DNA of 64,000 nt. Origin: an uncultured Elusimicrobia bacterium. Lineage in GTDB: Bacteria > Elusimicrobiota > Elusimicrobia > 2-01-FULL-59-12. A model generated the notes under the pieces. It did not search any database. It worked only from the letters and a program-made list of their open reading frames with translations, and had not been told where the DNA came from. Location: positions 2,418,398 to 2,482,397 of the forward strand of contig OY969767.1 in NCBI GenBank assembly GCA_963702895.1, given 5' to 3'. The position numbers and the translations under genes are program-made. Of this stretch, positions 7,721 to 48,904 are shown one piece after another (within the stretch, counting starts at the first letter, position 1; each line of letters starts with the position of its first letter).

Positions 7721-8803
7721 GTGATCTTCAGCTCTCATGGCCTACGGAAGGCCTTCTTCGCCCTCCCTTTGATCGTCTTGAGCTCCCTCGATGCGTCCGA
7801 TTCCTCCGGCAAGCGTCTTTGTGAAAAAGATTTTTCCTCCTATAAGAATCAACTCGCGAAGAACCCCTCCGATGATCTGACGTGGACAGAATTCAGGGTC
7901 TGCGCATCGGAACTTAAGAAGTGGGATGAAGCCATTCAGGTCGCGCTCCAGGCCAGACAGAAAAACAAAAACCTGCCCCAGCCTTATCTCATCCTCGGAC
8001 TCGCCCAAATGCACCAGAAGAATTTTGAGAGAGCCATTGAGCATTTCGACCAAAGCATTGCCCTCAACTCCATGCAGCCCCTCGCCTACTTTCAAATGGG
8101 GATGGCCTACCTTTTTCTCAATGAGCCGACCAAGGCGGCCCAAGCAGCAGAGCGAGCCATTGAACTCGACCCCACGAACTCCGCCTACCACAGGCAGCTG
8201 GCTTACACACGGCTCTTGCTGGACGATCTGTCGGGAGCAGAATTGTCGGCCAAGCGAGCCATCCAGTTGGACAAGGAGGACCTCGCGGCCCACAAGATCT
8301 TGGCGAAGATTTATACCAAGGCCGGCAACACCACAGGCGCGGCCTCTGAGCTCGCTTGGATCAAGTCGGCGGAGAGCGCCGCGGGGATTTCCCCGTCGGC
8401 ACTTCCCACCCAAACAGAACCCTCTTCCATGAAAGCCAAGGATGACGGCGAGGACGAGGAGGAAAAGACAGGCAAACAAGAGGATTATCAGGTGATTGGG
8501 CAATGCATCGGGCAGTGGACCCGGATGAAGAGCGCCGTTCTCCGTGGAAATTTGAACGAGTCACTGACCTATTATTCTGATTATCTCGATACGCGGGACC
8601 AATACCGCTCCTCTTTTGAGGCCATGGGGATGGAACGACTCAAGTCCATTTTCGGAAATTTCGGGGATCTTTACGATTGCGAAGTGGTGTTTGCCTCAGC
8701 CCATTGCAAGGCGATGGTCCATGGTCCATCGGGCGCCGTCGTCGTCACAAAGATTCGATTTGAGAAAAATCCCGATAAAGTTTGGAGAATTCGATCTTTT
8801 TAA
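7721..8803 (+). CDS. Secreted tetratricopeptide-repeat (TPR) protein
   Basis: N-terminal signal-like hydrophobic segment followed by several TPR-like repeats (e.g. AYFQMGMAYLFLNEPTKAAQAAERAIELDP). Confidence 0.7.
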   Translation: MIFSSHGLRKAFFALPLIVLSSLDASDSSGKRLCEKDFSSYKNQLAKNPSDDLTWTEFRVCASELKKWDEAIQVALQARQKNKNLPQPYLILGLAQMHQKNFERAIEHFDQSIALNSMQPLAYFQMGMAYLFLNEPTKAAQAAERAIELDPTNSAYHRQLAYTRLLLDDLSGAELSAKRAIQLDKEDLAAHKILAKIYTKAGNTTGAASELAWIKSAESAAGISPSALPTQTEPSSMKAKDDGEDEEEKTGKQEDYQVIGQCIGQWTRMKSAVLRGNLNESLTYYSDYLDTRDQYRSSFEAMGMERLKSIFGNFGDLYDCEVVFASAHCKAMVHGPSGAVVVTKIRFEKNPDKVWRIRSF

Positions 8804-8871
8804 AGCCGCGTCGGTCGTGCCGATACCGCGCGGCTCACCCCGTATCTGATTAACCGGGAAACTGCAGTTGC

Positions 8872-8953
8872 CGTCACCCCGGCGGCCGCCAGCCGGGGTC
8901 TATCAGACGTACAAAACCTGATGGATCCCCTGCTTACTACCGCAGGGGATGAC
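8872..8953. repeat. Composite palindromic (REP-like) element cluster, two hairpin units
   Basis: GTCACCCCGGC-N8-GCCGGGGTCTATCAGACG followed by GATGGATCCCCTGC-N8-GCAGGGGATGACGG. The same flank motifs recur at several other sites in the window. Confidence 0.5.
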
Positions 8954-8994
8954 GGCACTAAAAAGTGCACTGGGTTCAGACGGAGAGAATTGGC

Positions 8995-10157
8995 CAACTG
9001 CAGCGTAATATGAAAGCGGGCCTCAAGAGAGTTATAAACAAGGCTGTCGGTAAAGACACCTTAATAACCCCAGGAGGCCCAAAATCATGATATCCATCGG
9101 CATTGATCATCACAAGAAGTATTGTCAGGTTGTGGCTATGAGGGAGTCTGGCGAGATTGTATGGGAAGGTCAAGTCCCCACACGGCGAGAAGGTCTTGCA
9201 CAAGTTAAAGAGGCGATTCCTCCAGGAGAACCGGTGCAAAGTGTATTGGAATCTGGACGGAGCTGGGGCATTGCCTATGACATTCTGGAAGATCTCGGGA
9301 TGAATCCGGTGTTGGCCAATCCTTATAGATCACGATTGATCGCCGACTCGTTTATCAAAACAGACAAAATCGATGCAACGGCACATGCCCTGCTGCTACG
9401 TTTGGGGGTGACCCCAACAATCCACGTGCCGAGTCGAGATCGGCGGGAACAGAAAGCGCTATTGCGGCACCGACTATGGCTAGTGAAGGGACAAACGGTG
9501 ATCAAGAATCGAGTTCATGATTTACTCGACCGACTTCATGTTGACGTTCCCGAACGAAGCGACTTGTTTGGAGCGCATGGCCGGGCGTGGCTGAAGGCTT
9601 TGGAGCTTCCGGAGATGCACCAGCATTTATTGAGATCCCACATGGCATTGCTCGATGAGATTCGCGTCCAAATTCGAGCGACAGAAGAATGGATTGATCG
9701 GGTTTTAAGGGATCACCCTTTGCGCGAGCTTGTCGATTCATTTCCTGGGGTCGGCAAGATCTTAAGTGCTCTGATGGCCTTGGAAATTGACACCATTGAA
9801 CGGTTTCCGACGGCTGCGCGGTTTGCATCGTACTGTGGCGTGGTGTGTAGTACCTACAGTTCAGGGGGTAAGACGTATCACGGAGGATTGATCCCGTCTT
9901 GTAACCGCTATTTACGCTACGCATTAATCGAGGCCTGTTGGACGGCTGTATCTGTATCACCGTACTTTAAAGCCTTTTATCAGCAACGAAGAATTCGAAA
10001 GCTGTCATCGGTCGCTATTGTGGCAGTGGCCAGAAAGATGGCAGAGATCATGTGGGTATGCCTGAAGAACAAGAGGAAGTATAAGGAAAAGATGTATCGA
10101 TTTGGTCGAGTCGCCTTGGCGAAATCTTAACGGAAGCCGCGTTTAACTGCAGCGTAA
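8995..10157 (+). mobile_element. IS110-family insertion sequence (approximate boundaries)
   Basis: Contains a DEDD-type IS110 transposase ORF. Region is flanked by a 13-bp direct repeat AACTGCAGCGTAA (about 8995-9007 and 10145-10157), lacks obvious terminal inverted repeats as is typical for IS110, and is lower in GC than its surroundings. Confidence 0.6.
9087..10130 (+). CDS. IS110-family transposase
   Basis: N-terminal ISIGIDHHKK (GIDxxK-type DEDD start) and C-terminal block FPGVGKILSALMALEIDTIERFPTAARFASYCGVV..SGGK typical of IS110/IS1111 transposases. Confidence 0.85.
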   Translation: MISIGIDHHKKYCQVVAMRESGEIVWEGQVPTRREGLAQVKEAIPPGEPVQSVLESGRSWGIAYDILEDLGMNPVLANPYRSRLIADSFIKTDKIDATAHALLLRLGVTPTIHVPSRDRREQKALLRHRLWLVKGQTVIKNRVHDLLDRLHVDVPERSDLFGAHGRAWLKALELPEMHQHLLRSHMALLDEIRVQIRATEEWIDRVLRDHPLRELVDSFPGVGKILSALMALEIDTIERFPTAARFASYCGVVCSTYSSGGKTYHGGLIPSCNRYLRYALIEACWTAVSVSPYFKAFYQQRRIRKLSSVAIVAVARKMAEIMWVCLKNKRKYKEKMYRFGRVALAKS

Positions 10158-10391
10158 GGGACCCGGCCTCGAACCATTACAGTGTCCAGACGTCGTGGAC
10201 GAAGAAAAGTGTGAGTACAGCTTAAGCATCAAGACGAGGCGACGGTAAGAAAAACGCTCAAATAGCTAGTCGCACCACGGCCTACTTCAAAGGCAAGGAG
10301 AGACCTTTTGTCATTAAAGAATTTACTTGCGCCCGCTTTCAGAAAAGTTTTCGGGTTAACAGACCGCAAGGGTGCTTTTTTCAGGAGACGT

Positions 10392-11597
10392 CTAGCTGGA
10401 ACCCCTCGGCCGAATGGCCAGAACGAGCGCGTTGGCCACGGGCCTGCCACCTTCGAAGTAACGCTCATCCGCGGGGGCTTCTCCTTGCTGCGCGAAGATC
10501 GCACGCGACCTCCCCCCATCGAGCGCGATCGCCTCTTGAACGTTCATCTTGGAGAGCACGTAAGCCAATTGTTCATAGGACAAATTGCCGTTTGAATTTT
10601 TATGGGCCCAAAGCAAGACGATATCACCGTTCGCTTTCTCTGCCAGGGCAACACGGTCGCGACTTTTGAGCGTATGCAAACGCTCTTGTTGCGCCGTCAC
10701 TTGAATCTGGCCACGTTCGATCAGGCGCGGCCCAGCCAGAAGACCATGCACGATCTCTTGGGATGACCAGGCGGCTGGCAGCGACCAGGTGGCACGAACG
10801 AGAGCGCCACTCCTCAGGAGACTGGCACTGGCCCGCGCATCGCCGTGCAAAGCGACCACCAGGCCGTCCGGTGGGATCCGAAGGGGCCCCTGCCGAAAGT
10901 GGTCCTGGATTCGGTAGATCCCAGGCCGTGCGGGCTCGCTCTGTGCCGTGAGATAAATTGCATCACGAGGAATTCTGAGAAGTTTCCCATAGAGGGGCGT
11001 GAAAAGCGTCAGCGCGTTTTTTCCCCCAGGAATGTTGATATGGTGGACGGCGATTTTGGCCGCGCGGAAAGGCTTCCCCTTCCCTACGGCGAAGGTCTCC
11101 ATCCAGACCTTCGGCATCTGACGAGGCGAGGCGATGTGGAGGCGGGCCCGCGTAAGTCCGCCCTTCGAATCGCTAAATCCGACCATGCTTCGGGTAAAGC
11201 CCTGGGGCATGTTAAAGAATTCCATTTTCCGATCACGCATGAGAAACCCGATCGGGAGCCCTGTGGCCGTATCAAAAAATCCCCCGTTAATAGCCGCAAT
11301 CACGGTCCACCGGGTCTGCGCGCTAAAACGCCGGGCGATTTCACGGATGGACTCCGTCCCCGGGCCCTGGTCCCGGTAGAAGGGCACAGGGATAAGTTCC
11401 AGGCTCTCGGATCGCGCGCTGGCTGTGACATACTTGAGCGTGAGGTCCCCTTGCCTCTTGATAATAAAGCGTCCCGTACCGTTTGAGACGAGCCCATTCT
11501 GCCAGAACGTCGGAACGGAACGCTCCGGCTGGTCGACCAAGAGGGCCGAGACCAGAGCACAACAACCCAGGAGAAGGCGTTCCTTAGAGATGTTCAT
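10392..11597 (-). CDS. Phosphodiester glycosidase family protein (NAGPA-like), secreted
   Basis: Signal peptide; AINGGFFDTATGLPIGFLMRD motif characteristic of the phosphodiester glycosidase family. Confidence 0.6.
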   Translation of the reverse strand: MNISKERLLLGCCALVSALLVDQPERSVPTFWQNGLVSNGTGRFIIKRQGDLTLKYVTASARSESLELIPVPFYRDQGPGTESIREIARRFSAQTRWTVIAAINGGFFDTATGLPIGFLMRDRKMEFFNMPQGFTRSMVGFSDSKGGLTRARLHIASPRQMPKVWMETFAVGKGKPFRAAKIAVHHINIPGGKNALTLFTPLYGKLLRIPRDAIYLTAQSEPARPGIYRIQDHFRQGPLRIPPDGLVVALHGDARASASLLRSGALVRATWSLPAAWSSQEIVHGLLAGPRLIERGQIQVTAQQERLHTLKSRDRVALAEKANGDIVLLWAHKNSNGNLSYEQLAYVLSKMNVQEAIALDGGRSRAIFAQQGEAPADERYFEGGRPVANALVLAIRPRGSS

Positions 11598-32079: not shown

Positions 32080-32205
32080 GTCACCCCGGCGGATTGTTAG
32101 CCGGCCCTCCAGACGCCCGGCGGGCCGTCCGCCCTGCCGTGTGGCGGACGGAGTCTATCATCGACGAAAAAGACATGATGGATCCCGGCTTTCGCCGGGA
32201 TGACG
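32080..32205. repeat. Composite palindromic (REP-like) element cluster, three hairpins
   Basis: GTCACCCCGGCGG...; CCGTCCGCC-N9-GGCGGACGG; GATGGATCCCGGC-TTTC-GCCGGGATGACGG. Same flank motifs as the 8872-8953 cluster. Confidence 0.5.
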
Positions 32206-32300
32206 GCATAGTAGAGTTTGCTTATTACGGACGATAACACCGTTTCATTCGACAATTTTCGGGTTAATACGTCTATTAGGTTAGAGAGGCAAAGGAACGA

Positions 32301-37075: not shown

Positions 37076-37146
37076 CTCCCGGACTAGGATTCGAACCTAG
37101 ACTAAGGGATTCAGAGTCCCTCGTGCTACCGTTACACAATCCGGGA
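37076..37146 (-). tRNA. tRNA-Gln (anticodon CUG), 71 nt, CCA not encoded
   Basis: Manual cloverleaf: acceptor TCCCGGA/TCCGGGA with U1-A72 and G73 discriminator (both typical of bacterial tRNA-Gln); D-arm GTGT-AACGGTA-GCAC; anticodon arm AGGGA-CTCTGAA-TCCCT (CUG at about 37112-37114 on the minus strand); T-arm CTAGG-TTCGAAT-CCTAG. Confidence 0.8.
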
Positions 37147-37330: not shown

Positions 37331-37849
37331 TTATGGTTTGATGATTTCCGGTCCTTTGCTCACGCCGGGCGGGATGATTATATCAGGGCCTTTTTTCTCC
37401 GTCGCCTTTTCGGCGGACGCCTCGGACTTGCGGACTTCGTCAGCAAAGTTGAGCTCCAGGTCGGACACCAGGTTGTCGAGCATCTCCTGTTCTTTGACGC
37501 TCAAGTTTCCTTCCGTCTTTTCCTGAAGCATGCGCAAGAACTCAATCGAGATGCGGGCCTGATCGATGTCCTTTTCGATCTTCTGGGTCACCGGATGGGG
37601 CACTTTCCCCAGCTGCGCCCAGGCGGCAGACCCCAAGGACATCACCAGCGTCAAAAACCGGTAATCGTCCACAACGCTATCAGGCGGACGAGCGCCTGTT
37701 GTGTGGCGCTCGGCTTCTCCTGGCATTTCAATTTTTTCTTCTGACACAACCACCCTCCTTGCCGTCACCCCAGCGGATTGTGAGCCGGGGTCCATCGTTA
37801 TTGGCGTAGGCATGATGGATCCCCCACTTACAGCCGTGGGGGATGACAC
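37331..37849 (-). CDS. DUF1844-like protein; N-terminal region overlaps a palindromic repeat, so the true start may be internal
   Basis: C-terminal part (LTLVMSLGSAAWAQLGKVPHPVTQKIEKDIDQARISIEFLRMLQEKTEGNLSVKEQEMLDNLVSDLELNF) matches the small conserved family commonly encoded beside gltX. The N-terminal about 40 codons lie on palindromic-repeat sequence. Confidence 0.55.
   Translation of the reverse strand: MSSPTAVSGGSIMPTPITMDPGSQSAGVTARRVVVSEEKIEMPGEAERHTTGARPPDSVVDDYRFLTLVMSLGSAAWAQLGKVPHPVTQKIEKDIDQARISIEFLRMLQEKTEGNLSVKEQEMLDNLVSDLELNFADEVRKSEASAEKATEKKGPDIIIPPGVSKGPEIIKP
37762..37849. repeat. Palindromic element pair overlapping the 5' end of the DUF1844-like ORF
   Basis: CATGATGGATCCCCCA-CTTACAGCC-GTGGGGGATGACAC plus an adjacent GGACCCCGGCTCACAATCCGCTGGGGTGACGG unit. 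Near-identical to the element inside metH at about 47011-47127. Confidence 0.5.
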
Positions 37850-39334
37850 CTAGATTACTTTTGCCTGCAAAAGTTGTTGGGCCTTCTTAATACGCTCGAG
37901 CGTGCGTTTCTTTCCTAAAAATTCCACCATGTGCCAAAGGCTTGGCCCTTCCGTCCGCCCGGACACGCAAACGCGCAAGGGATGAAACACGGCACCGTTC
38001 TTGACCCCTTTATCTTTGGCCAAGGTCTTGCATAGGTTCTCAATGCCCGGCACGTCAAAGGGCTCAAGCGCCGCCAGGCGCTTGACAAGTTCTTCGATGA
38101 TCCCCGCAGCACCCTCGGCGCGAAGCACTTTGCCCACCGCCTCCTCTCGATACTCGTAATCATCCCAGAGAAGAAAATCCGTGAGCTTCGGAACATCCGA
38201 GAGCAGCTTGACTTTTTCGAGCTCGAGGGCGACCGCTGCCTCATAAGTGGACGCAGGCACAGCGGATATGTCTTTGCCCTTGTAGAAGGGTTCCGCCAGG
38301 GCAGCCAGTTCCCGAGCGGACGTTTTGCGGATGTATTCGCCGTTCATCCACAAAAGCTTCGTGGGATCAAAGGTCGCGGCGCTTTTGCCGCAGCGTTCAA
38401 TCTGAAATTTTTCCACCATCTCTTGCTGCGTGAACAGCTGCTGGCTGTCTTCGGTCCCCCAGCCAAGAAGAGCGAGATAATTCAGCAGCGCGTTCGGGAG
38501 ATACCCCGCGTCCCGGTACTCCGTGACAGAGGTCGCGCCATGCCGCTTGGAGAGCCGGGCGCCATCGGAACCCAGGATCATCGCCAGATGCGCAAATTGT
38601 GGCACCTGCCAGCCCAGCGCCTCGTAAACGAGCATCTGCCGCGGCGTGTTGGAGAGGTGGTCATCGCCGCGGATCACATGGCTGATCTTCATGAGATGGT
38701 CGTCCACCACGCAAGCGAAGTTGTAGGTCGGCACCCCCGTCGACTTGAGGACCACGAAATCTTCCATGAGAGCATTCTCAAAAACTTTGACGCCATGGAT
38801 GAGATCCGTAAAGCGCGTCTCGCCCACATGCGGGGTCTTAAAACGGATGGATTTCTTCCGCCCCTGGGCTTCCTTGGCTTTTCGCTCATCAGCGCTCAGG
38901 TTGCGGCACCTGCCGTCATACTTGGGAGGCCTTTTGGCAAGGAGCGCGAGCTCCCGCATTTTCTCCACTTCTTCTGGAGTGCAGTAACAGGGATAGGCAA
39001 ACCCCTTCTTCAGCAGCTCGTCGCACGCGGCCCAATAGCCTGCCAGGCGTTGCATCTGATAGTAGGGACCATAGTCGCCCTTCACTCCTCTGCCATCGGC
39101 GGTTGGCCCTTCGTCCCAATCGAGGCCCAGCCACTTCATGGACTCGAGGATCCCGTTGACAGACTCATCTGTGGAGCGCACTTCATCGGTATCTTCAATC
39201 CGAAGAATGAACGTCCCCTGATGGTGACGGGCAAAGAGCCAGTTAAACAGGGCTGTACGCGCCCCGCCGATATGGAGGAAACCCGTGGGCGAAGGCGCAA
39301 ACCGGACGCGGATAGACGGTTTATCCATAGACAT
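37850..39334 (-). CDS. gltX: Glutamyl-tRNA synthetase
   Basis: HIGH-region (RFAPSPTGFLHIGGARTALFN) and KMSKS-like RLSKRHG. 494 aa. Confidence 0.9.
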   Translation of the reverse strand: MSMDKPSIRVRFAPSPTGFLHIGGARTALFNWLFARHHQGTFILRIEDTDEVRSTDESVNGILESMKWLGLDWDEGPTADGRGVKGDYGPYYQMQRLAGYWAACDELLKKGFAYPCYCTPEEVEKMRELALLAKRPPKYDGRCRNLSADERKAKEAQGRKKSIRFKTPHVGETRFTDLIHGVKVFENALMEDFVVLKSTGVPTYNFACVVDDHLMKISHVIRGDDHLSNTPRQMLVYEALGWQVPQFAHLAMILGSDGARLSKRHGATSVTEYRDAGYLPNALLNYLALLGWGTEDSQQLFTQQEMVEKFQIERCGKSAATFDPTKLLWMNGEYIRKTSARELAALAEPFYKGKDISAVPASTYEAAVALELEKVKLLSDVPKLTDFLLWDDYEYREEAVGKVLRAEGAAGIIEELVKRLAALEPFDVPGIENLCKTLAKDKGVKNGAVFHPLRVCVSGRTEGPSLWHMVEFLGKKRTLERIKKAQQLLQAKVI

Positions 39335-45206: not shown

Positions 45207-48200
45207 CCCGAGACGATTTCAACAAACTCCTTCGCGAACAGGTTCTCGTCTTCGACGGGGCTACAGGCACCAACCTTCAGCTCCACAATCCCACCCTGGA
45301 CGACTATGCCGGCATGGAAGGCTGCACCGAAATTCTTCTTGAAACACATCCGGAATGGATCGAGGAGCTTCACGCCTCCTTCTTTAAAGCGGGATGCCAG
45401 GTCGTGGAGACCAATTCTTTTGGGGCGAATCGTATCGTTTTCACCGAATACGGTCTTGAGGACCGGGTTCATGAGTTTAATGTCAAAGCGGCCCAGCTTG
45501 CTCGGAAAGTCGCCCATGCCTTCAGCGCCCAAGACAAACCCCGTTTTGTCGCGGGCTCCATGGGTCCTGGCACGAAGCTTCCTTCTCTTGGACACACCAC
45601 TTTCGACACACTGCGCCATAACTACCAGGAACAAGCTGAAGGTCTGATCGACGGGGGCGTGGACATCCTCCTGATCGAAACCTGCCAGGATATCCTACAG
45701 GCCAAAGCCGCCACGGTGGGCGTTCTGGACGCTCTTTCCCGCAAGAAGAAGGACCTCCCGATCATGGTGCAGGTCACCGTGGAGTCCACGGGGACTTTGC
45801 TCTTGGGGACCGAAATGGCGGCGGTCATCTCCGCTTTGGAGCCCTATCCCATCGCTTCCCTCGGCATGAACTGTGCGACGGGCCCCCAGGAGATGTCGGA
45901 ACACGTGCGGATCCTGTCCCAGCAGTGGGCCCGGCCTATTTCTGTTCTTCCCAACGCGGGTTTACCCGAAAACGTGGGCGGACGAGCAGTCTATCGGCTC
46001 ACTCCTCAGGAGCTGGCCGAGCATCTGAAAGATTTCGTCACCCGGTTCGGGATCAATATCGTAGGCGGCTGCTGTGGGACCACGCCCGCGCATCTGGCTG
46101 AAGTCGTGAAAGTCATGGAGAAGATCAAGCCTGTTCCGAGAAGCCTCTCAAGCACCCCGGCTTGTTCAAGCCTCTACCTTCAAGTGCCCTTCAAGCAGGA
46201 GCCGAGGCCTCTTATCATCGGTGAACGCACGAATGCCAACGGCTCCAAGAAATTTCGTGAGCTGCTCGCCAAGGATGACTTTGATGCGATCGCCGCCATG
46301 GGAAAAGAAGAGGTGAACGAGGGCGCTCACATGATCGACCTCTGCACAGCTTTTGTGGGCCGGGACGAGGTCCGTGACATGAAGGAATGTGTGAGCCGCA
46401 TGGCGCTCCAGGTGCGCCTGCCGCTCATGATTGACTCCACCGAGGCCCCCGTGATTGAAGAAGCTCTTAAACGTGCGGGCGGACGCTGTGTCATCAATTC
46501 CATCAACCTGGAAGATGGCGAAGAAAGAATGAAGGCGGTCTGCCCTCTGGCCAAGACTTATGGCGCAGCCCTGGTGGCGCTCACAATCGACGAGCAAGGC
46601 ATGGCCAAAACCCGGCAAAAGAAGCTCGCCATCGCCAAGCGCATTCACGATCTGGCCATCAAGCGCTTCGGTCTGCGACCGGAAGATTTGCTGTTCGACG
46701 CTTTGACGTTTACGCTCGGTTCGGGTGACGAGGATTTTCGCAAGGCAGGTCTCGAGACCATCGAGGCCATCCGCCTGATCAAAAAGGAGCTCCCCGGAGT
46801 CTTCACCGTACTGGGCGTTTCCAATATCTCGTTTGGTCTGGCACCCCAGATCCGCCAGGTGTTGAACTCGGTGTTTCTCCATTACGCCATTGAAGCCGGT
46901 CTCGACGCTGCCATTGTCCACGCACGCAAGATCCTGCCCCTCTACAAAATCGATGAGAAAGGACGGGAGCTCGCTCGTAAATTGATTTTTGATGATCGCA
47001 CACCCCTCTCGTCATCCCCCGCGGGTGTCAGCGGGGGATCCATCATGATGGACCCCGGGTCTCCAAACAACAGGCGACCCGGCCCGCCGGACGTGTGGAG
47101 GGCCGGCTTACAATCCGCCGGGGTGACGGCTTCTTTTGATCCTCTGACCGCGCTCATGGCGCACTATGCCGAAACCTCAGAGATCTCTGCGAAAGCGAAT
47201 AAGGAAGAACCCAAGACCATCGAAGAGCATCTCAAGGTCCGTATCATCGACGGGAATAAACAGGGCCTGGAGGGACTGCTCGATGAGGCGATGAAGAAGT
47301 GGGGTCCGCTCGAGATCATCAACACCATACTGCTTGACGGGATGCGGGTGGTGGGCGATTTGTTTGGTTCGGGCCAGATGCAGCTCCCCTTCGTTCTTCA
47401 GTCCGCGGAAACCATGAAAGTGGCGGTGCGTCATCTGGAGCCCTTCATGCCTAAGGCGGACGCTGGTGTTCATAAAGGGAAGCTCGTCCTTGCGACCGTC
47501 AAAGGGGACGTTCACGACATCGGGAAGAACCTCGTCGATATCATCCTCACGAACAACGGCTACAAGGTTTTCAATTTGGGCATCAAGATGTCGATCGATG
47601 AGATCCTCAAGGCTGCCGCGGAAAAGAAGGCCGATGCGATCGGGATGTCAGGCTTGCTCGTCAAATCGACGGCGGTCATGAAGGAAAACTTAGAGGAGAT
47701 GAATAAACGAGGCGTGCAAACGCCGGTCCTTTTGGGTGGGGCGGCTCTCACGCGCCGATTTGTGGAAGAAGATCTCCGGCAGCTCTACAAGGGCTATGTC
47801 TATTATGGGGTGGACGCTTTTGCGGGGCTTCGCATCATGGACGAGCTGACCAACCCTTCCAGAGAAAAGAAGTTGACCCTCTATGAGACGCGTGGCGGTT
47901 CGGGCCAAACCTTGAAAGCGGGAGACTTGCCCTCACCCCACCCCTCTCCCGCCTTCGGCGGGAGAGGGCGGTCGCCAGACGCCTGGCGACCGGGTGAGGG
48001 CACGCTCTATATCCCTCTATCCCCCTCTCCTTCTATTCCTCATCCGCCGTTCTGGGGCAGCCGGGTCGCGCGAGGAATCGCTTTAAAGGATGTCTTCCCC
48101 TATATCAACGAAACGGCCCTCCTCAAAGTGCGCTGGGGCTTTTCCAGGGGGCAAACAAGCGCCGAAGATTACGCGCAACTCCTTAAGGAAACCGTTGGGC

Positions 48201-48904
48201 CGCTCTTTCAGAAGTGGAAAAACTACTGCCTTAAGGAGCAGATACTGGTCCCGCAAGTGGTTTACGGTTATTTCCCTTGCCTGTCTGAAGGAGATGATGT
48301 GGTGGTGTATAGGCCGGAAGATTTGAAAAAGGAATGGGTGCGCTTTAAATTCCCGCGACAAAACACGACTCCGATGCGATGTATCAGTGACTTCTTTCTC
48401 CAAAAGCCGTCATCCCGGCATGCTGTAAGCCGGGATCCATCAGACGTGATGGATCCCCCGCTAAAGTCCGCGGGGGATGACAGAAAGAATTTTGACGTAT
48501 TAGGTTGCTTTGTCGTGACGGTCGGAACCCAGGCAAGCAACAAAGCGCATGCCCTCTTCAAGGAGAACTCCTACAGCGATTATCTCTACCTGCACGGGCT
48601 AAGCGTGGAAACGGCCGAAGCCTTAGCCGAGCACTGGCACCGCCGCATGCGTGAGGAGCTGAACATCCACCAGGAAGATCACCCGGAGGTGCGTGAATGG
48701 TTTCACCAGAAGTACCATGGCGGTCGCTACTCTTTTGGGTATCCCGCCTGCCCCAACCTGGAAGATCAAGCAAAGCTTTTTGAACTGCTGGATCCCCAAC
48801 GCATTGGCGTAGCGCTCTCCGAAGCGTTTCAGTTAGACCCTGAGCAAAGCACCTCCGCCATCGTCCTGCACCACCCCGAAGCCAAATACTTTAACGTCCA
48901 GTAA
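45203..48904 (+). CDS. metH: Cobalamin-dependent methionine synthase (Hcy-binding, pterin-binding, B12-binding and AdoMet-activation domains) carrying three in-frame palindromic insertions
   Basis: Single 1233-aa ORF with Hcy-domain start (VLVFDGATGTNLQ), GCCGTTPAHL, B12-binding region and C-terminal activation domain. Start overlaps the upstream stop. Confidence 0.9.
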   Translation: MTRDDFNKLLREQVLVFDGATGTNLQLHNPTLDDYAGMEGCTEILLETHPEWIEELHASFFKAGCQVVETNSFGANRIVFTEYGLEDRVHEFNVKAAQLARKVAHAFSAQDKPRFVAGSMGPGTKLPSLGHTTFDTLRHNYQEQAEGLIDGGVDILLIETCQDILQAKAATVGVLDALSRKKKDLPIMVQVTVESTGTLLLGTEMAAVISALEPYPIASLGMNCATGPQEMSEHVRILSQQWARPISVLPNAGLPENVGGRAVYRLTPQELAEHLKDFVTRFGINIVGGCCGTTPAHLAEVVKVMEKIKPVPRSLSSTPACSSLYLQVPFKQEPRPLIIGERTNANGSKKFRELLAKDDFDAIAAMGKEEVNEGAHMIDLCTAFVGRDEVRDMKECVSRMALQVRLPLMIDSTEAPVIEEALKRAGGRCVINSINLEDGEERMKAVCPLAKTYGAALVALTIDEQGMAKTRQKKLAIAKRIHDLAIKRFGLRPEDLLFDALTFTLGSGDEDFRKAGLETIEAIRLIKKELPGVFTVLGVSNISFGLAPQIRQVLNSVFLHYAIEAGLDAAIVHARKILPLYKIDEKGRELARKLIFDDRTPLSSSPAGVSGGSIMMDPGSPNNRRPGPPDVWRAGLQSAGVTASFDPLTALMAHYAETSEISAKANKEEPKTIEEHLKVRIIDGNKQGLEGLLDEAMKKWGPLEIINTILLDGMRVVGDLFGSGQMQLPFVLQSAETMKVAVRHLEPFMPKADAGVHKGKLVLATVKGDVHDIGKNLVDIILTNNGYKVFNLGIKMSIDEILKAAAEKKADAIGMSGLLVKSTAVMKENLEEMNKRGVQTPVLLGGAALTRRFVEEDLRQLYKGYVYYGVDAFAGLRIMDELTNPSREKKLTLYETRGGSGQTLKAGDLPSPHPSPAFGGRGRSPDAWRPGEGTLYIPLSPSPSIPHPPFWGSRVARGIALKDVFPYINETALLKVRWGFSRGQTSAEDYAQLLKETVGPLFQKWKNYCLKEQILVPQVVYGYFPCLSEGDDVVVYRPEDLKKEWVRFKFPRQNTTPMRCISDFFLQKPSSRHAVSRDPSDVMDPPLKSAGDDRKNFDVLGCFVVTVGTQASNKAHALFKENSYSDYLYLHGLSVETAEALAEHWHRRMREELNIHQEDHPEVREWFHQKYHGGRYSFGYPACPNLEDQAKLFELLDPQRIGVALSEAFQLDPEQSTSAIVLHHPEAKYFNVQ
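47011..47127. repeat. Palindromic element pair lying in frame inside metH
   Basis: GTCATCCCCCGCGGG-TGTCA-GCGGGGGATCCATCATGATGGACCCCGGG ... GGCTTACAATCCGCCGGGGTGACGG. Encodes SSSPAGVSGGSIMMDPGSPNNRRPGPPDVWRAGLQSAGVTA. Confidence 0.6.
47930..48000. repeat. Nested palindrome (CCCTCACC ... GGGTGAGGG family) lying in frame inside metH
   Basis: CCCTCACCCCACCCCTCTCCCGCC-TTCG-GGCGGGAGAGGGCGGTCGCCAG-ACGC-CTGGCGACCGGGTGAGGG: an outer stem enclosing two hairpins, followed by a CT-rich tract. Encodes PSPHPSPAFGGRGRSPDAWRPGEG. Confidence 0.6.
48409..48482. repeat. Two opposed palindromic units lying in frame inside metH
   Basis: GTCATCCCGGC-ATGCTGTAA-GCCGGGATCCATCAGACGTGATGGATCCCCCGC-TAAAGTCC-GCGGGGGATGACAG. 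Confidence 0.6.

What the first reader, a model, noticed from the sequence alone, without database searches (positions are those of the whole stretch)
8995..10157. Compact IS110-family element flanked by a 13-bp direct repeat
A DEDD-type transposase (347 aa) sits in a roughly 1.15-kb lower-GC segment bounded by AACTGCAGCGTAA direct repeats. IS110-family elements are known to carry a structured bridge/guide RNA in a non-coding end that base-pairs with target and donor DNA. Here the 5' flank is only about 80 nt, so any such RNA would have to be short or lie 3' of the ORF (10131-10390), which contains several stems.
Basis: partly seen in the sequence, partly recalled or inferred. Interest (0 to 1): 0.5.

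Follow-up and report, generated by a model that had tools for sequence, protein, structure and literature searches.

The report
IS1111-type insertion sequence with bridge RNA
This is an intact, ordinary member of the RNA-guided IS110/IS1111 transposon family, and the reported "13-bp direct repeat" is not a flanking duplication but the element's own guide RNA gene carrying a copy of the DNA site it inserted into.

Summary
The repeat AACTGCAGCGTAA (8996-9008, 10145-10157) and the 347-aa DEDD transposase (9087-10130) are real. The proposed boundaries are wrong.

Alignment with over 20 related metagenomic elements puts the element at 9004-10345, plus one copy of an AG core dinucleotide (1344 bp). 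It has perfect 11-bp subterminal inverted repeats at 9011-9021 and 10331-10341. The second repeat copy therefore lies inside the element.

That copy sits in a conserved structured RNA (10101-10232) that begins within the last codons of the transposase gene. The RNA has two internal loops:
- **Target loop:** one guide is complementary to the right flank (10120-10127). The other is identical to the left flank plus core (10145-10152, extended to 10157).
- **Donor loop:** its two guides match the element's own ends (10176-10180, 10203-10211).

Guide-to-flank matching holds across relatives (about 5.2 of 7 bases cognate versus 1.9 of 7 non-cognate; 0 of 20,000 permutations). Helices show compensatory changes. 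Joining the two ends in silico creates a TTGCGC-17-TAATAT promoter.

This is the IS1111-type seekRNA/bridge RNA architecture published in 2024, so it is a new member of a known kind. Expression and activity are untested.

The parts
8996..9001 (+). Left target half-site (LT), AACTGC, host DNA just left of the core
   Evidence: It is identical to the variable part of the internal guide at 10145-10150. The equivalent 6-7 nt differ in every relative and track that relative's guide.
9002..9003 (+). Left copy of the AG core dinucleotide (crossover site)
   Evidence: AG precedes the conserved left end in 21 of 21 loci, while the base before it varies. Both target guides cover it.
9004..10345 (+). Body of the insertion sequence (1342 bp; 1344 bp with one core copy)
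   Evidence: These are the limits of similarity to L002, L003 and L004, which sit in unrelated flanks. Sizes of 1287-1556 bp were reconstructed for relatives.
9004..9010 (+). 7-nt left terminal extension, CGTAATA
   Evidence: It lies between the core and the left inverted repeat. A 7-bp left extension is described for the IS1111 family (PMC11187229).
9006..9011 (+). TAATAT, the -10 half of the promoter formed when the ends are joined in a circle
   Evidence: Joining the right end, one AG and the left end gives TTGCGC-17 nt-TAATAT. An equivalent TTGACN-17-TAnnAT forms in nearly all relatives.
9011..9021 (+). Left subterminal inverted repeat, TGAAAGCGGGC
   Evidence: It is 11 of 11 complementary to 10331-10341 (pair I13) and conserved in relatives.
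9018..9080 (+). Left-end hairpin (GGGCCUC at 9018-9024 with GAGGCCC at 9074-9080) that covers the ribosome-binding site GGAGG (9073-9077)
   Evidence: Folding 9004-9100 gives -29.9 kcal/mol, z = -4.55, with 0 of 200 shuffles as stable. Equivalent arms are visible in relatives with different sequence (by eye).
9087..10130 (+). Transposase/recombinase gene (347 aa, DEDD RuvC-like N-terminal domain plus Tnp C-terminal domain)
   Evidence: Supported by Pfam and NCBIfam NF033542. It has 534 homologues. D7, E55, D93, D96 and S259 are invariant in the 14-sequence alignment A2.
10101..10232 (+). Bridge RNA / seekRNA module; its first ~26-30 nt (CM hit starts at 10101, first helix at 10105) overlap the end of the transposase ORF
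   Evidence: Covariance model R1 scores it at 112 bits, E = 6e-26, and it is the only hit in the window. The same model finds the RNA next to the transposase gene in loci not used to build it.
10105..10118 (+). 5' strand of the stem that closes the target-binding loop (GUCGAGUC, a G bulge, then CCUUG)
   Evidence: It pairs with 10155-10167. Seven of the 13 pairs show compensatory double changes, and 97% of cells are paired.
10120..10127 (+). Right target guide (RTG), CGAAAUCU, complementary to top strand 10346-10353. U10128 can additionally pair with A10345 (last base of the right end).
   Evidence: Eight of nine positions pair in the window (and sequence). Across relatives, 5.2 of 7 match for cognate pairs versus 1.9 of 7 for non-cognate, with 0 of 20,000 permutations as good. 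Out-of-sample loci L020, L021 and L031 also match.
10129..10143 (+). Small hairpin between the two target guides
   Evidence: It appears in the single-sequence fold. The equivalent helix in relatives has 3 pairs with compensatory changes (helix 2).
10145..10157 (+). Left target guide (LTG): AACUGC plus core AG (10145-10152), then CGUAA (10153-10157), which matches the first 5 nt of the left end.
   Evidence: It is identical to 8996-9008. Cognate guide/flank identity is 5.2 of 7 versus 1.9 of 7, with 0 of 20,000 permutations as good. The 2 nt after the core track the first 2 nt of each element's left end (AT, CG or GT).
10155..10167 (+). 3' strand of the target-loop closing stem (UAAGG, then GACCCGGC)
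   Evidence: In the window this stem has one A.C mismatch and one G.U pair.
10176..10180 (+). Right donor guide (RDG), AUUAC, complementary to GTAAT at 9005-9009 in the left end
   Evidence: This RNA segment changes with left-end positions 2-5 across relatives (ACUA/TAGT, GUUA/TAAC, AUUA/TAAT, CCUA/TAGG).
10183..10201 (+). Hairpin inside the donor-binding loop (UGUCCA ... UGGACG)
   Evidence: 96.8% of cells are paired. The apical pair occurs as UA, CG, AU and GC (helix 4).
10203..10211 (+). Left donor guide (LDG), AGAAAAGUG. It has the same sense as the right end's last 5 nt, the AG core and the left end's first 2 nt, i.e. the circle junction AGAAAAGCG (one G.U).
   Evidence: It matches 9 of 9 in 14 of the 17 loci scored, including the co-varying variants ATAAAAGAT and AGAAGAGAT.
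10327..10332 (+). TTGCGC, the -35 half of the circle-junction promoter
10331..10341 (+). Right subterminal inverted repeat, GCCCGCUUUCA
   Evidence: See (pair I13).
10346..10347 (+). Right copy of the AG core
   Evidence: It follows the right-end consensus (TTTCAGAAA in most; G-to-T or A-to-G variants in some; L004's right end was read by eye) in every window-family locus whose right end was recovered (about 18). The multi-copy relative P0084 has AT or AA there instead.
10348..10353 (+). Right target half-site (RT), TTTTCG, host DNA
   Evidence: It is complementary to the RTG except at the first base. TTTTCGGGTTAA recurs at 32256 as part of a host repeat.

Best explanation
Window 9004-10345, plus a shared AG core, is an intact IS1111-type member of the IS110 family of RNA-guided insertion sequences.

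**Components**
- A DEDD/serine recombinase gene.
- A roughly 130-nt bridge RNA (seekRNA), encoded at and just past the 3' end of that gene.

**RNA layout**
- The RNA folds into two internal loops.
[quoted passage not shown] - In the donor loop, the 5' side pairs with the start of the left end. The 3' side pairs across the joined right-end/core/left-end junction.

**Inferred cycle, by homology with IS621 and ISEc11**
1. The element excises as a circle.
2. The circle junction creates a promoter (TTGCGC-17-TAATAT) that drives the recombinase gene and, by read-through, the RNA.
3. The recombinase-RNA complex brings the circle junction and a target of the form AACTGC-AG-(A/T)TTTCG together and exchanges strands at AG.

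**Shown here:** boundaries, inverted repeats, RNA structure by covariation, covariation of all four guides with DNA, and the in-silico junction promoter.
**Inferred:** transcription, processing, binding to the recombinase, and the chemistry.
For: **Boundaries**
- Similarity among the window, L002 and L003 starts at AG|CGTAATATG and ends at TTTCAGAAA|AG, within unrelated flanks.
- The same ends are seen in about 20 further loci.
- The multi-copy relative P0084 sits in at least 3 different left contexts that diverge exactly upstream of CTAACC|AG, and its guide reads UUAACCAG.

**Element features**
- The 11-bp subterminal inverted repeats are perfect.
- Protein family.

**RNA**
- Consensus structure has 28 pairs, 13 with compensatory double changes and 95% of cells paired. 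0 of 500 shuffles reach this, and slid controls drop to 27-50% paired.
- The covariance model finds the RNA beside the transposase gene in loci not used for training, down to 34-36% protein identity.

**Guides**
- LTG versus left flank and RTG versus right flank each score 5.2 of 7 for cognate pairs and 1.9 of 7 for non-cognate, with 0 of 20,000 permutations as good.
- Out-of-sample loci L020, L021 and L031 also match.
- The LDG matches the reconstructed circle junction 9 of 9 in 14 of the 17 loci scored, with co-varying variants. The RDG tracks left-end positions 2-5.

**Promoter**
- The junction promoter has optimal 17-nt spacing only with a single AG, and it is conserved family-wide.

**Agreement with the literature**
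- IS1111 type: subterminal repeats, downstream non-coding region, top-strand guide 5' of bottom-strand guide, overlapping matches (PMC11187229).
- The core is included in every guide pairing (PMC11208160).
Against: - There is no expression data, and no sigma-70-like promoter on the + strand inside the integrated element.
- The single-sequence fold is no more stable than shuffles (z = 0.4 to 0.86).
- The window copy has an A.C mismatch in the target-loop stem and a U.T mismatch at the first base after the core in the RTG pairing.
- No empty site was found, so the single-core model rests on comparison and promoter spacing.
- The stem closing the donor loop is ambiguous: 10168-10171 with 10212-10215, versus a 3' hairpin at 10211-10225. 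Both are nearly invariant.
- Rfam 15 has no matching family.
- The terminal extensions (7 nt left; 4 nt + core right) differ from the canonical 7/3 reported for IS1111 elements.
Confidence: 0.88

Rival explanations
1. One reading: a compact ~1.15-kb IS110-family element (8995-10157) bounded by a 13-bp target-site duplication, with 10158-10390 being host DNA.
For: The repeat is exact and statistically unexpected. The ORF lies between the two copies.
Against: - The 190 bp after the second copy are conserved in relatives from unrelated contexts. They contain the right inverted repeat and the -35 box.
- In relatives the 'right copy' sits at the same internal RNA position, while its variable bases follow each element's own left flank.
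- This family makes no duplication beyond the core (PMC11187229).
Confidence: 0.02
2. The architecture is as described, but this copy is an immobile relic. The RNA stem mismatch and the imperfect right-flank pairing would reflect decay, and the element would no longer move.
For: - There is one A.C mismatch in the closing stem and one mismatch in the RTG/right-flank pairing.
- Only one copy is present in the 64-kb window.
- No internal promoter was detected.
Against: - The ORF is uninterrupted, and every column invariant among 14 homologues is retained.
- The inverted repeats are perfect.
- The RNA scores 112 bits, in the same range as the best out-of-sample relatives (119, 118 and 81 bits).
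- An independent assembly of run ERR11561443 breaks 29 nt inside the right end. That is typical of a repeat present more than once in that sample.
- Lack of an internal promoter is the normal state for this family, which relies on the junction promoter (PMC12288879).
Confidence: 0.12
3. The RNA guides only target choice (a short seekRNA), and the element's ends are recognised by the protein through the subterminal inverted repeats. On this view the apparent donor guides (10176-10180, 10203-10211) are conserved for another reason, such as RNA folding or protein binding.
For: - The experimentally purified IS1111-family seekRNAs were short (82-96 nt), and only target matches were described in them (PMC11187229).
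- The donor segments are mostly invariant, so the covariation rests on few events.
- Long inverted repeats exist that a protein could read.
Against: - The few variants do co-vary: right end CATAAA with RNA AUAAAAG (L008, L009); right end CAGAAG with RNA AGAAGAG (L019, L024); left-end start AT, CG or GT with the 2 nt after the core; left-end positions 2-5 with the RDG.
- Donor-binding nucleotides are reported for predicted IS1111 bridge RNAs (PMC11208160).
Confidence: 0.1

Closest known systems
IS1111-family insertion sequences with a seekRNA (ISEc11, ISKpn4, ISPa11, ISPst6; Siddiquee et al. 2024, PMC11187229)
   Same: - A DEDD transposase of about 340 aa.
- 11-13-bp subterminal inverted repeats.
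- A short left end and a long non-coding region downstream of the transposase gene.
- An RNA whose top-strand-complementary segment lies 5' of the bottom-strand-complementary segment, with the two matches overlapping in the target.
- A junction promoter formed on circularisation.
- A 7-nt left extension.
   Different: - Protein identity to anything in the plasmid collection is at most 36%, and no named IS was matched.
- The right extension is 4 nt plus core rather than 3.
- The RNA's 5' stem strand and right target guide overlap the last codons of the transposase gene in the window and in 14 of 20 relatives. I found no mention of this in that paper's text.
- A small hairpin separates the two target guides.
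IS621 / ISCro4 bridge RNA systems (IS110 group; Durrant et al. 2024 PMC11208160; Hiraizumi et al. 2024 PMC11208158; PDB 8wt6, 9t56)
   Same: - Two internal loops in the order target then donor.
[quoted passage not shown]
- All guides include a 2-nt core.
- One or two extra guide bases pair with the partner DNA (U10128 with the last base of the right end), resembling handshake guides.
   Different: - The RNA is 3' of the gene rather than in the left end.
- Guide order within each loop is reversed (right guide 5', left guide 3').
- The core is AG, not CT.
- The subterminal repeats are long.
- Protein similarity is weak and limited to the C-terminal domain (E = 1e-10 and 2e-8).
- The LTG continues 2-5 nt into the left end on the bottom strand, which is not part of the IS621 handshake description.
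ISPpu9 / ISPpu10-type IS110-family elements that insert into repetitive extragenic palindromes (PMC12288879)
   Same: - They insert beside host intergenic palindromic repeats.
- They recombine at an invariant AG dinucleotide.
   Different: ISPpu9 belongs to the IS110 group, has no subterminal repeats, has its own promoter, and forms no junction promoter.

Membership tests
IS110 family (DEDD RNA-guided transposases) | Protein with a DEDD_Tnp_IS110 N-terminal domain and a Transposase_20 C-terminal domain, scoring above curated cutoffs | tested here: met
   PF01548 scores 68.6 bits (cutoff 29) and PF02371 scores 79.4 bits (cutoff 21.3). NF033542 scores 229 bits (cutoff 140).
IS110 family (DEDD RNA-guided transposases) | Catalytic D-E-D-D residues and the conserved Ser-Gly of the C-terminal domain are present | tested here: met
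   D7, E55, D93, D96 and S259 are invariant in alignment A2 (14 sequences; G260 is not listed there), and the window protein reads SSGG at 258-261. Assigning these residues to catalytic roles is by homology to IS621 D11/E60/D102/D105/S241 (PMC11208158) and was not aligned residue by residue.
IS110 family (DEDD RNA-guided transposases) | Site-specific insertion with no duplication other than a short shared core | tested here: met
   AG is found at the left junction in all 21 loci and at the right junction wherever a right end was recovered; otherwise the flanks are unrelated. No empty site was available to confirm a single AG in the target.
IS1111 group | Subterminal inverted repeats (7-17 bp, usually 11-13) | tested here: met
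   TGAAAGCGGGC (9011-9021) and GCCCGCTTTCA (10331-10341) are 11 of 11 complementary.
IS1111 group | Short left end, with the long non-coding region downstream of the transposase gene | tested here: met
   The left end is 83 nt (9004-9086) and the right non-coding region is 215 nt (10131-10345).
IS1111 group | Asymmetric terminal extensions of 7 (or 6) bp on the left and 3 bp on the right | tested here: inconclusive
   Between core and repeat there are 7 nt on the left (6 in most relatives) and 4 nt on the right (GAAA). If the core is counted with the left end, as in PMC11187229, the figures become 9 and 4. The outcome depends on convention and on an empty site I could not obtain.
IS1111 group | RNA with the top-strand-complementary target match 5' of the bottom-strand-complementary match, overlapping in the target | tested here: met
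   The RTG (10120-10127) lies 5' of the LTG (10145-10152), and both include AG.
IS1111 group | Junction promoter formed by joining the right and left ends | tested here: met
   TTGCGC-17-TAATAT forms in silico, and the feature is conserved across relatives. It has not been shown experimentally.
IS1111 group | Transposase groups phylogenetically with IS1111-type transposases and is related across its full length | not tested
   No ISfinder reference set was available. A 24%-identical Klebsiella plasmid element with 12-bp subterminal repeats aligns over residues 3-332. IS110-group structures align only over the C-terminal domain.
Bridge RNA / seekRNA | Structured RNA with a target loop and a donor loop whose guide segments co-vary with target flanks and element ends | tested here: met
   
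Bridge RNA / seekRNA | The RNA is transcribed, binds the recombinase and is required for transposition | not testable with these tools
   This needs RNA-seq, co-purification and transposition assays.
Bridge RNA / seekRNA | Match to a curated RNA family | tested here: not met
   There was no Rfam 15 hit at E <= 10 in 8000-11500 and none at gathering score in the whole window. That shows only that no model in that library matches this RNA.

The most novel reading that the evidence does not exclude
In this clade the 5' part of the bridge RNA (closing-stem strand and right target guide) is read as the last 8-12 codons of the recombinase, in different frames in different relatives. The RNA would then be the 3' end of the recombinase mRNA itself. 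Translation to the stop codon and folding of the target loop would be mutually exclusive on a single transcript. Retargeting the right guide would rewrite the protein's C-terminal tail. This would couple guide maturation to translation and favour action in cis. In addition, the bottom-strand guide runs 2-5 nt into the left end, so it matches the integrated junction perfectly (13 nt here). That could bias the RNA toward recognising occupied sites for excision.
Probability: 0.15. Interest if true: 0.5.

Novelty: new member of a known kind. Interest (0 to 1): 0.3.

Why it matters
The result turns a misleading "flanking direct repeat" into a textbook annotation of an RNA-guided insertion sequence, with exact ends, core, four guides, junction promoter and predicted target. 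It also shows that a guide-versus-flank repeat is a practical way to spot bridge RNAs from raw sequence.

It adds an environmental clade of dozens of metagenomic loci, with a covariance model that no Rfam family covers. This may be useful to people mining compact programmable recombinases.

It does not change the understanding of the mechanism. The overlap of guide and coding sequence is a minor curiosity unless it proves to have regulatory consequences.

Tried and rejected
- **Rfam:** no relevant family in a permissive scan of 8000-11500 or a gathering-score scan of the whole window. The only hit was a tRNA at 37076-37146.
- **Genome-contig scan with the protein:** only one distant (30%) locus, so there is no related genome and no empty site.
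- **Exact-protein look-ups for the transposase:** nothing on record.
- **Look-ups with the two neighbouring genes:** these found an independent assembly of what is probably the same organism, not an empty site. One contig stops 29 nt inside the right end, the other inside the host repeat.
- **Other copies in the window:** blastn, tblastn and the covariance model found none.
- **Single-sequence folding of the RNA:** not more stable than shuffles, so I relied on covariation.
- **Closing stem of the donor loop:** I could not decide between two alternatives.
- **Plasmid search:** best hit 36% identity. The model detects that element's RNA (33 bits), but its left flank did not match its guide, so it was not used. 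The 24%-identical enterobacterial elements are beyond the model's reach.
- **Promoter scan:** no + strand promoter inside the integrated element.
- **Chance as the explanation for the repeat:** rejected (permutations).
Full report
**1. Observation**

The 13-mer AACTGCAGCGTAA occurs exactly twice in the window, at 8996-9008 and 10145-10157, both on the + strand. Dinucleotide-preserving shuffles expect 0.04 such matches, and 0 of 100 shuffles gave two. Between the copies lies a 347-aa ORF (9087-10130). It has the two Pfam domains of IS110-family transposases and scores 229 bits on NCBIfam NF033542 "IS110 family RNA-guided transposase". GC is modestly lower (0.47-0.53) from about 9000 to about 10350, which already reaches beyond the second repeat copy.

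**2. True boundaries**

A protein search gave 534 homologues, mostly on 1.2-2-kb metagenomic contigs. I fetched loci for the closest ones and 59 further loci from a metagenome scan.

- The window was aligned with L002 (86% aa identity) and L003 (78%), which sit in unrelated flanks. Similarity begins at AG|CGTAATATGAAAGCGGGC (window 9002/9004) and ends at GCCCGCTTTCAGAAA|AG (10345/10347).
- The same ends appear in about 20 more relatives.
- The ends carry a perfect 11-bp subterminal inverted repeat, 9011-9021 with 10331-10341 (pair I13).
- The element is therefore 9004-10345 plus one AG, 1344 bp in all. The second copy of the 13-mer is about 190 bp inside it.
- A multi-copy relative (P0084, 23 contigs) gives independent support. 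At least three different left contexts diverge exactly upstream of CTAACC|AG, and its internal guide reads UUAACCAG.

**3. What the internal copy is**

In every relative the segment homologous to 10145-10152 has a variable 5-7 nt followed by AG. The variable part equals that element's own left flank:
- window: AACTGC
- L002: AACCG
- L003: TCTA
- L006: CTTGT
- L014: GCCTCCA
- and so on.

A second variable segment lies upstream (window 10120-10127, CGAAAUCU). It is the reverse complement of core plus right flank.

I scored these matches in register over 7 nt.
- Cognate guide/flank pairs average 5.2 of 7 for both guides.
- Non-cognate pairs average 1.9 of 7.
- 0 of 20,000 permutations reach the observed sums.
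- Loci found later by the covariance model and not used in the table also match: L020; L021, with a 10/10 right-guide match; and L031 (right guide only).

**4. RNA structure**

An alignment of 21 sequences (A3) gives a consensus fold. I refined it and tested it.
- 28 pairs, 95% of cells paired, 13 pairs with compensatory double changes.
- 0 of 500 shuffles are as good, and slid controls fall to 27-50% paired.
- A long stem (window 10105-10118 with 10155-10167) closes a loop. That loop holds the right target guide, a small hairpin (10129-10143) and the left target guide.
- A second loop follows. It holds AUUAC (10176-10180), a hairpin (10183-10201) and AGAAAAGUG (10203-10211).
- The stem closing the second loop is ambiguous, because both alternatives are almost invariant.
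- Single-sequence folding recovers the main helices but is not more stable than shuffles. The support is comparative.

A covariance model (R1) scores the window RNA at 112 bits and finds no other copy in the window. It detects the RNA right after the transposase gene in loci not used for training, down to 34-36% protein identity. These include a Sphingobium plasmid element.

**5. Donor loop**

The 9-nt segment at 10203-10211 has the same sense as the right end's last 5 nt, then AG, then the left end's first 2 nt. That is the junction expected in a circular intermediate.
- It matches 9 of 9 in 14 of the 17 loci scored, and the rare variants co-vary:
  - right end CATAAA with RNA AUAAAAG
  - right end CAGAAG with RNA AGAAGAG
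  - left-end start AT, CG or GT with the two bases after the core
- AUUAC and its equivalents are complementary to left-end positions 2-5 and change with them.
- The RNA therefore has the full target-loop plus donor-loop logic of a bridge RNA.

**6. Junction promoter and left end**

Joining the right end, one AG and the left end gives TTGCGC-17 nt-TAATAT in the window. It gives TTGACN-17-TAnnAT in nearly all relatives. Zero or two core copies would give 15 or 19 nt, so the spacing supports a single shared core. No + strand promoter exists inside the integrated copy.

The left end (9004-9100) folds very stably (z = -4.55). The fold hides the ribosome-binding site and the start codon. This is consistent with silencing of read-through transcripts (inference).

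**7. Comparison with the literature**

Siddiquee et al. (PMC11187229) define IS1111-type elements by four features:
- subterminal repeats
- a downstream non-coding region
- 7/3-bp extensions
- a seekRNA whose top-strand-complementary match is 5' of the bottom-strand-complementary match, with the two overlapping in the target

Durrant et al. (PMC11208160) define the left guide as pairing with the bottom strand and the right guide with the top strand, with the core included in each. They place IS1111 bridge RNAs in the right end.

All of this fits, apart from the right extension (4 nt plus core). The nearest solved structures, ISCro4 and IS621, align only weakly and only C-terminally. Rfam has no matching family.

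**8. The window copy in detail**

- The target implied by the guides is AACTGC-AG-ATTTCG(C).
- The occupied site reads AACTGC-AG-TTTTCG(G), so there is one U.T mismatch right after the core.
- The closing stem has one A.C mismatch.
- The 13-nt identity is longer than in most relatives (9-11 nt). In this subclade the left end starts CGTAA, which also matches the guide's CG extension and the UAA that opens the stem strand.
- By analogy with the handshake guides and excision complexes of IS621 (PMC11208158; PMC13626964), this extension could stabilise the recombined or excision state. That is inference.

**9. Context**

The element sits about 45 nt from a host palindromic repeat (8861-8957) that recurs at least four times in the window. 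The right flank TTTTCGGGTTAA recurs at 32256, at the same distance from another repeat copy.

An independent assembly (ERR11561443) has the same insertion. Its contig breaks 29 nt into the right end, which suggests that the element is repeated in that sample.

**10. Verdict**

- The object is an intact IS1111-type RNA-guided insertion sequence with a complete bridge RNA, a new member of a known kind.
- The only mildly unusual point is that the RNA's 5' part overlaps the recombinase's last codons. The overlap is 24-35 nt in 14 of 20 loci and falls in different reading frames. In six relatives the same RNA lies 20-138 nt downstream of the stop codon. Conservation there is therefore at the RNA level.

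Noticed in passing
window 8861-8957; also 32085-32210, 37760-37850, 47010-47100 (- strand), 48390-48485: A composite host intergenic palindromic repeat (GTCACCCCGGCGG...GCCGGGGTC...GATGGATCCCC..GGGGATGAC) recurs at least five times in the window. The insertion sequence sits about 45 nt to its right.
   Followed up: partly
window 32256-32267 (and 45961-45972, - strand, 1 mismatch): The right-flank sequence TTTTCGGGTTAA recurs 47 nt after another copy of the host repeat, compared with 46 nt at the insertion site. The target therefore lies in a larger, diverged repeat unit. The base pair before it is AA, not AG, and the left half-site does not match the guide.
   Followed up: partly
window 8860-8873: AACTGCAGTTGCCG lies 140 bp upstream of the element. 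It differs at only 2 of 14 positions from the reconstructed target AACTGC-AG-TTTTCG and is unoccupied. It contains a palindromic CTGCAG.
   Followed up: no
window 9004-9100: The left end folds into a very stable structure (z = -4.55) that pairs the ribosome-binding site and the start codon. A transcript starting at the junction promoter would lack part of the 5' arm.
   Followed up: partly
window 10104-10130; relatives L002-L024: The recombinase's last 8-12 codons are the RNA's stem strand and right target guide. The same RNA sequence is read in different frames in different relatives (FGRVAL versus RSGRL), and in six relatives it is not translated at all. The 'conserved' C-terminal tail is therefore an RNA constraint.
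   Followed up: yes
L066-L075 (relative P0084): In this multi-copy relative the left junction has AG, but the right junction has AT or AA. Its right target guide carries AU where others carry CU, while its left target guide and left donor guide say AG. The two core copies therefore differ, and I have no explanation. One possibility is heteroduplex resolution at a mismatched core.
   Followed up: partly
L076 (Logan ERR11561443), corresponding to window 10318-10460: An independent assembly carries the same insertion and its contig ends 29 nt inside the right end. This is typical of an assembly-graph branch at a repeat, so the element may be multi-copy or polymorphic in that sample.
   Followed up: no
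L021 flanks: The target of this relative is itself palindromic (CGCAAATC...GATTTGCG). This suggests that other members of the clade also insert into palindromic repeats.
   Followed up: no
window 9087-10130 (protein residues 179-320): There is a weak sub-threshold match to NF052498 'TIGR-Tas system RNA-guided endonuclease' (40.7 bits against a cutoff of 100).
   Followed up: no
window 37076-37146 (- strand): A tRNA gene, the only Rfam hit at gathering score in the window.
   Followed up: no
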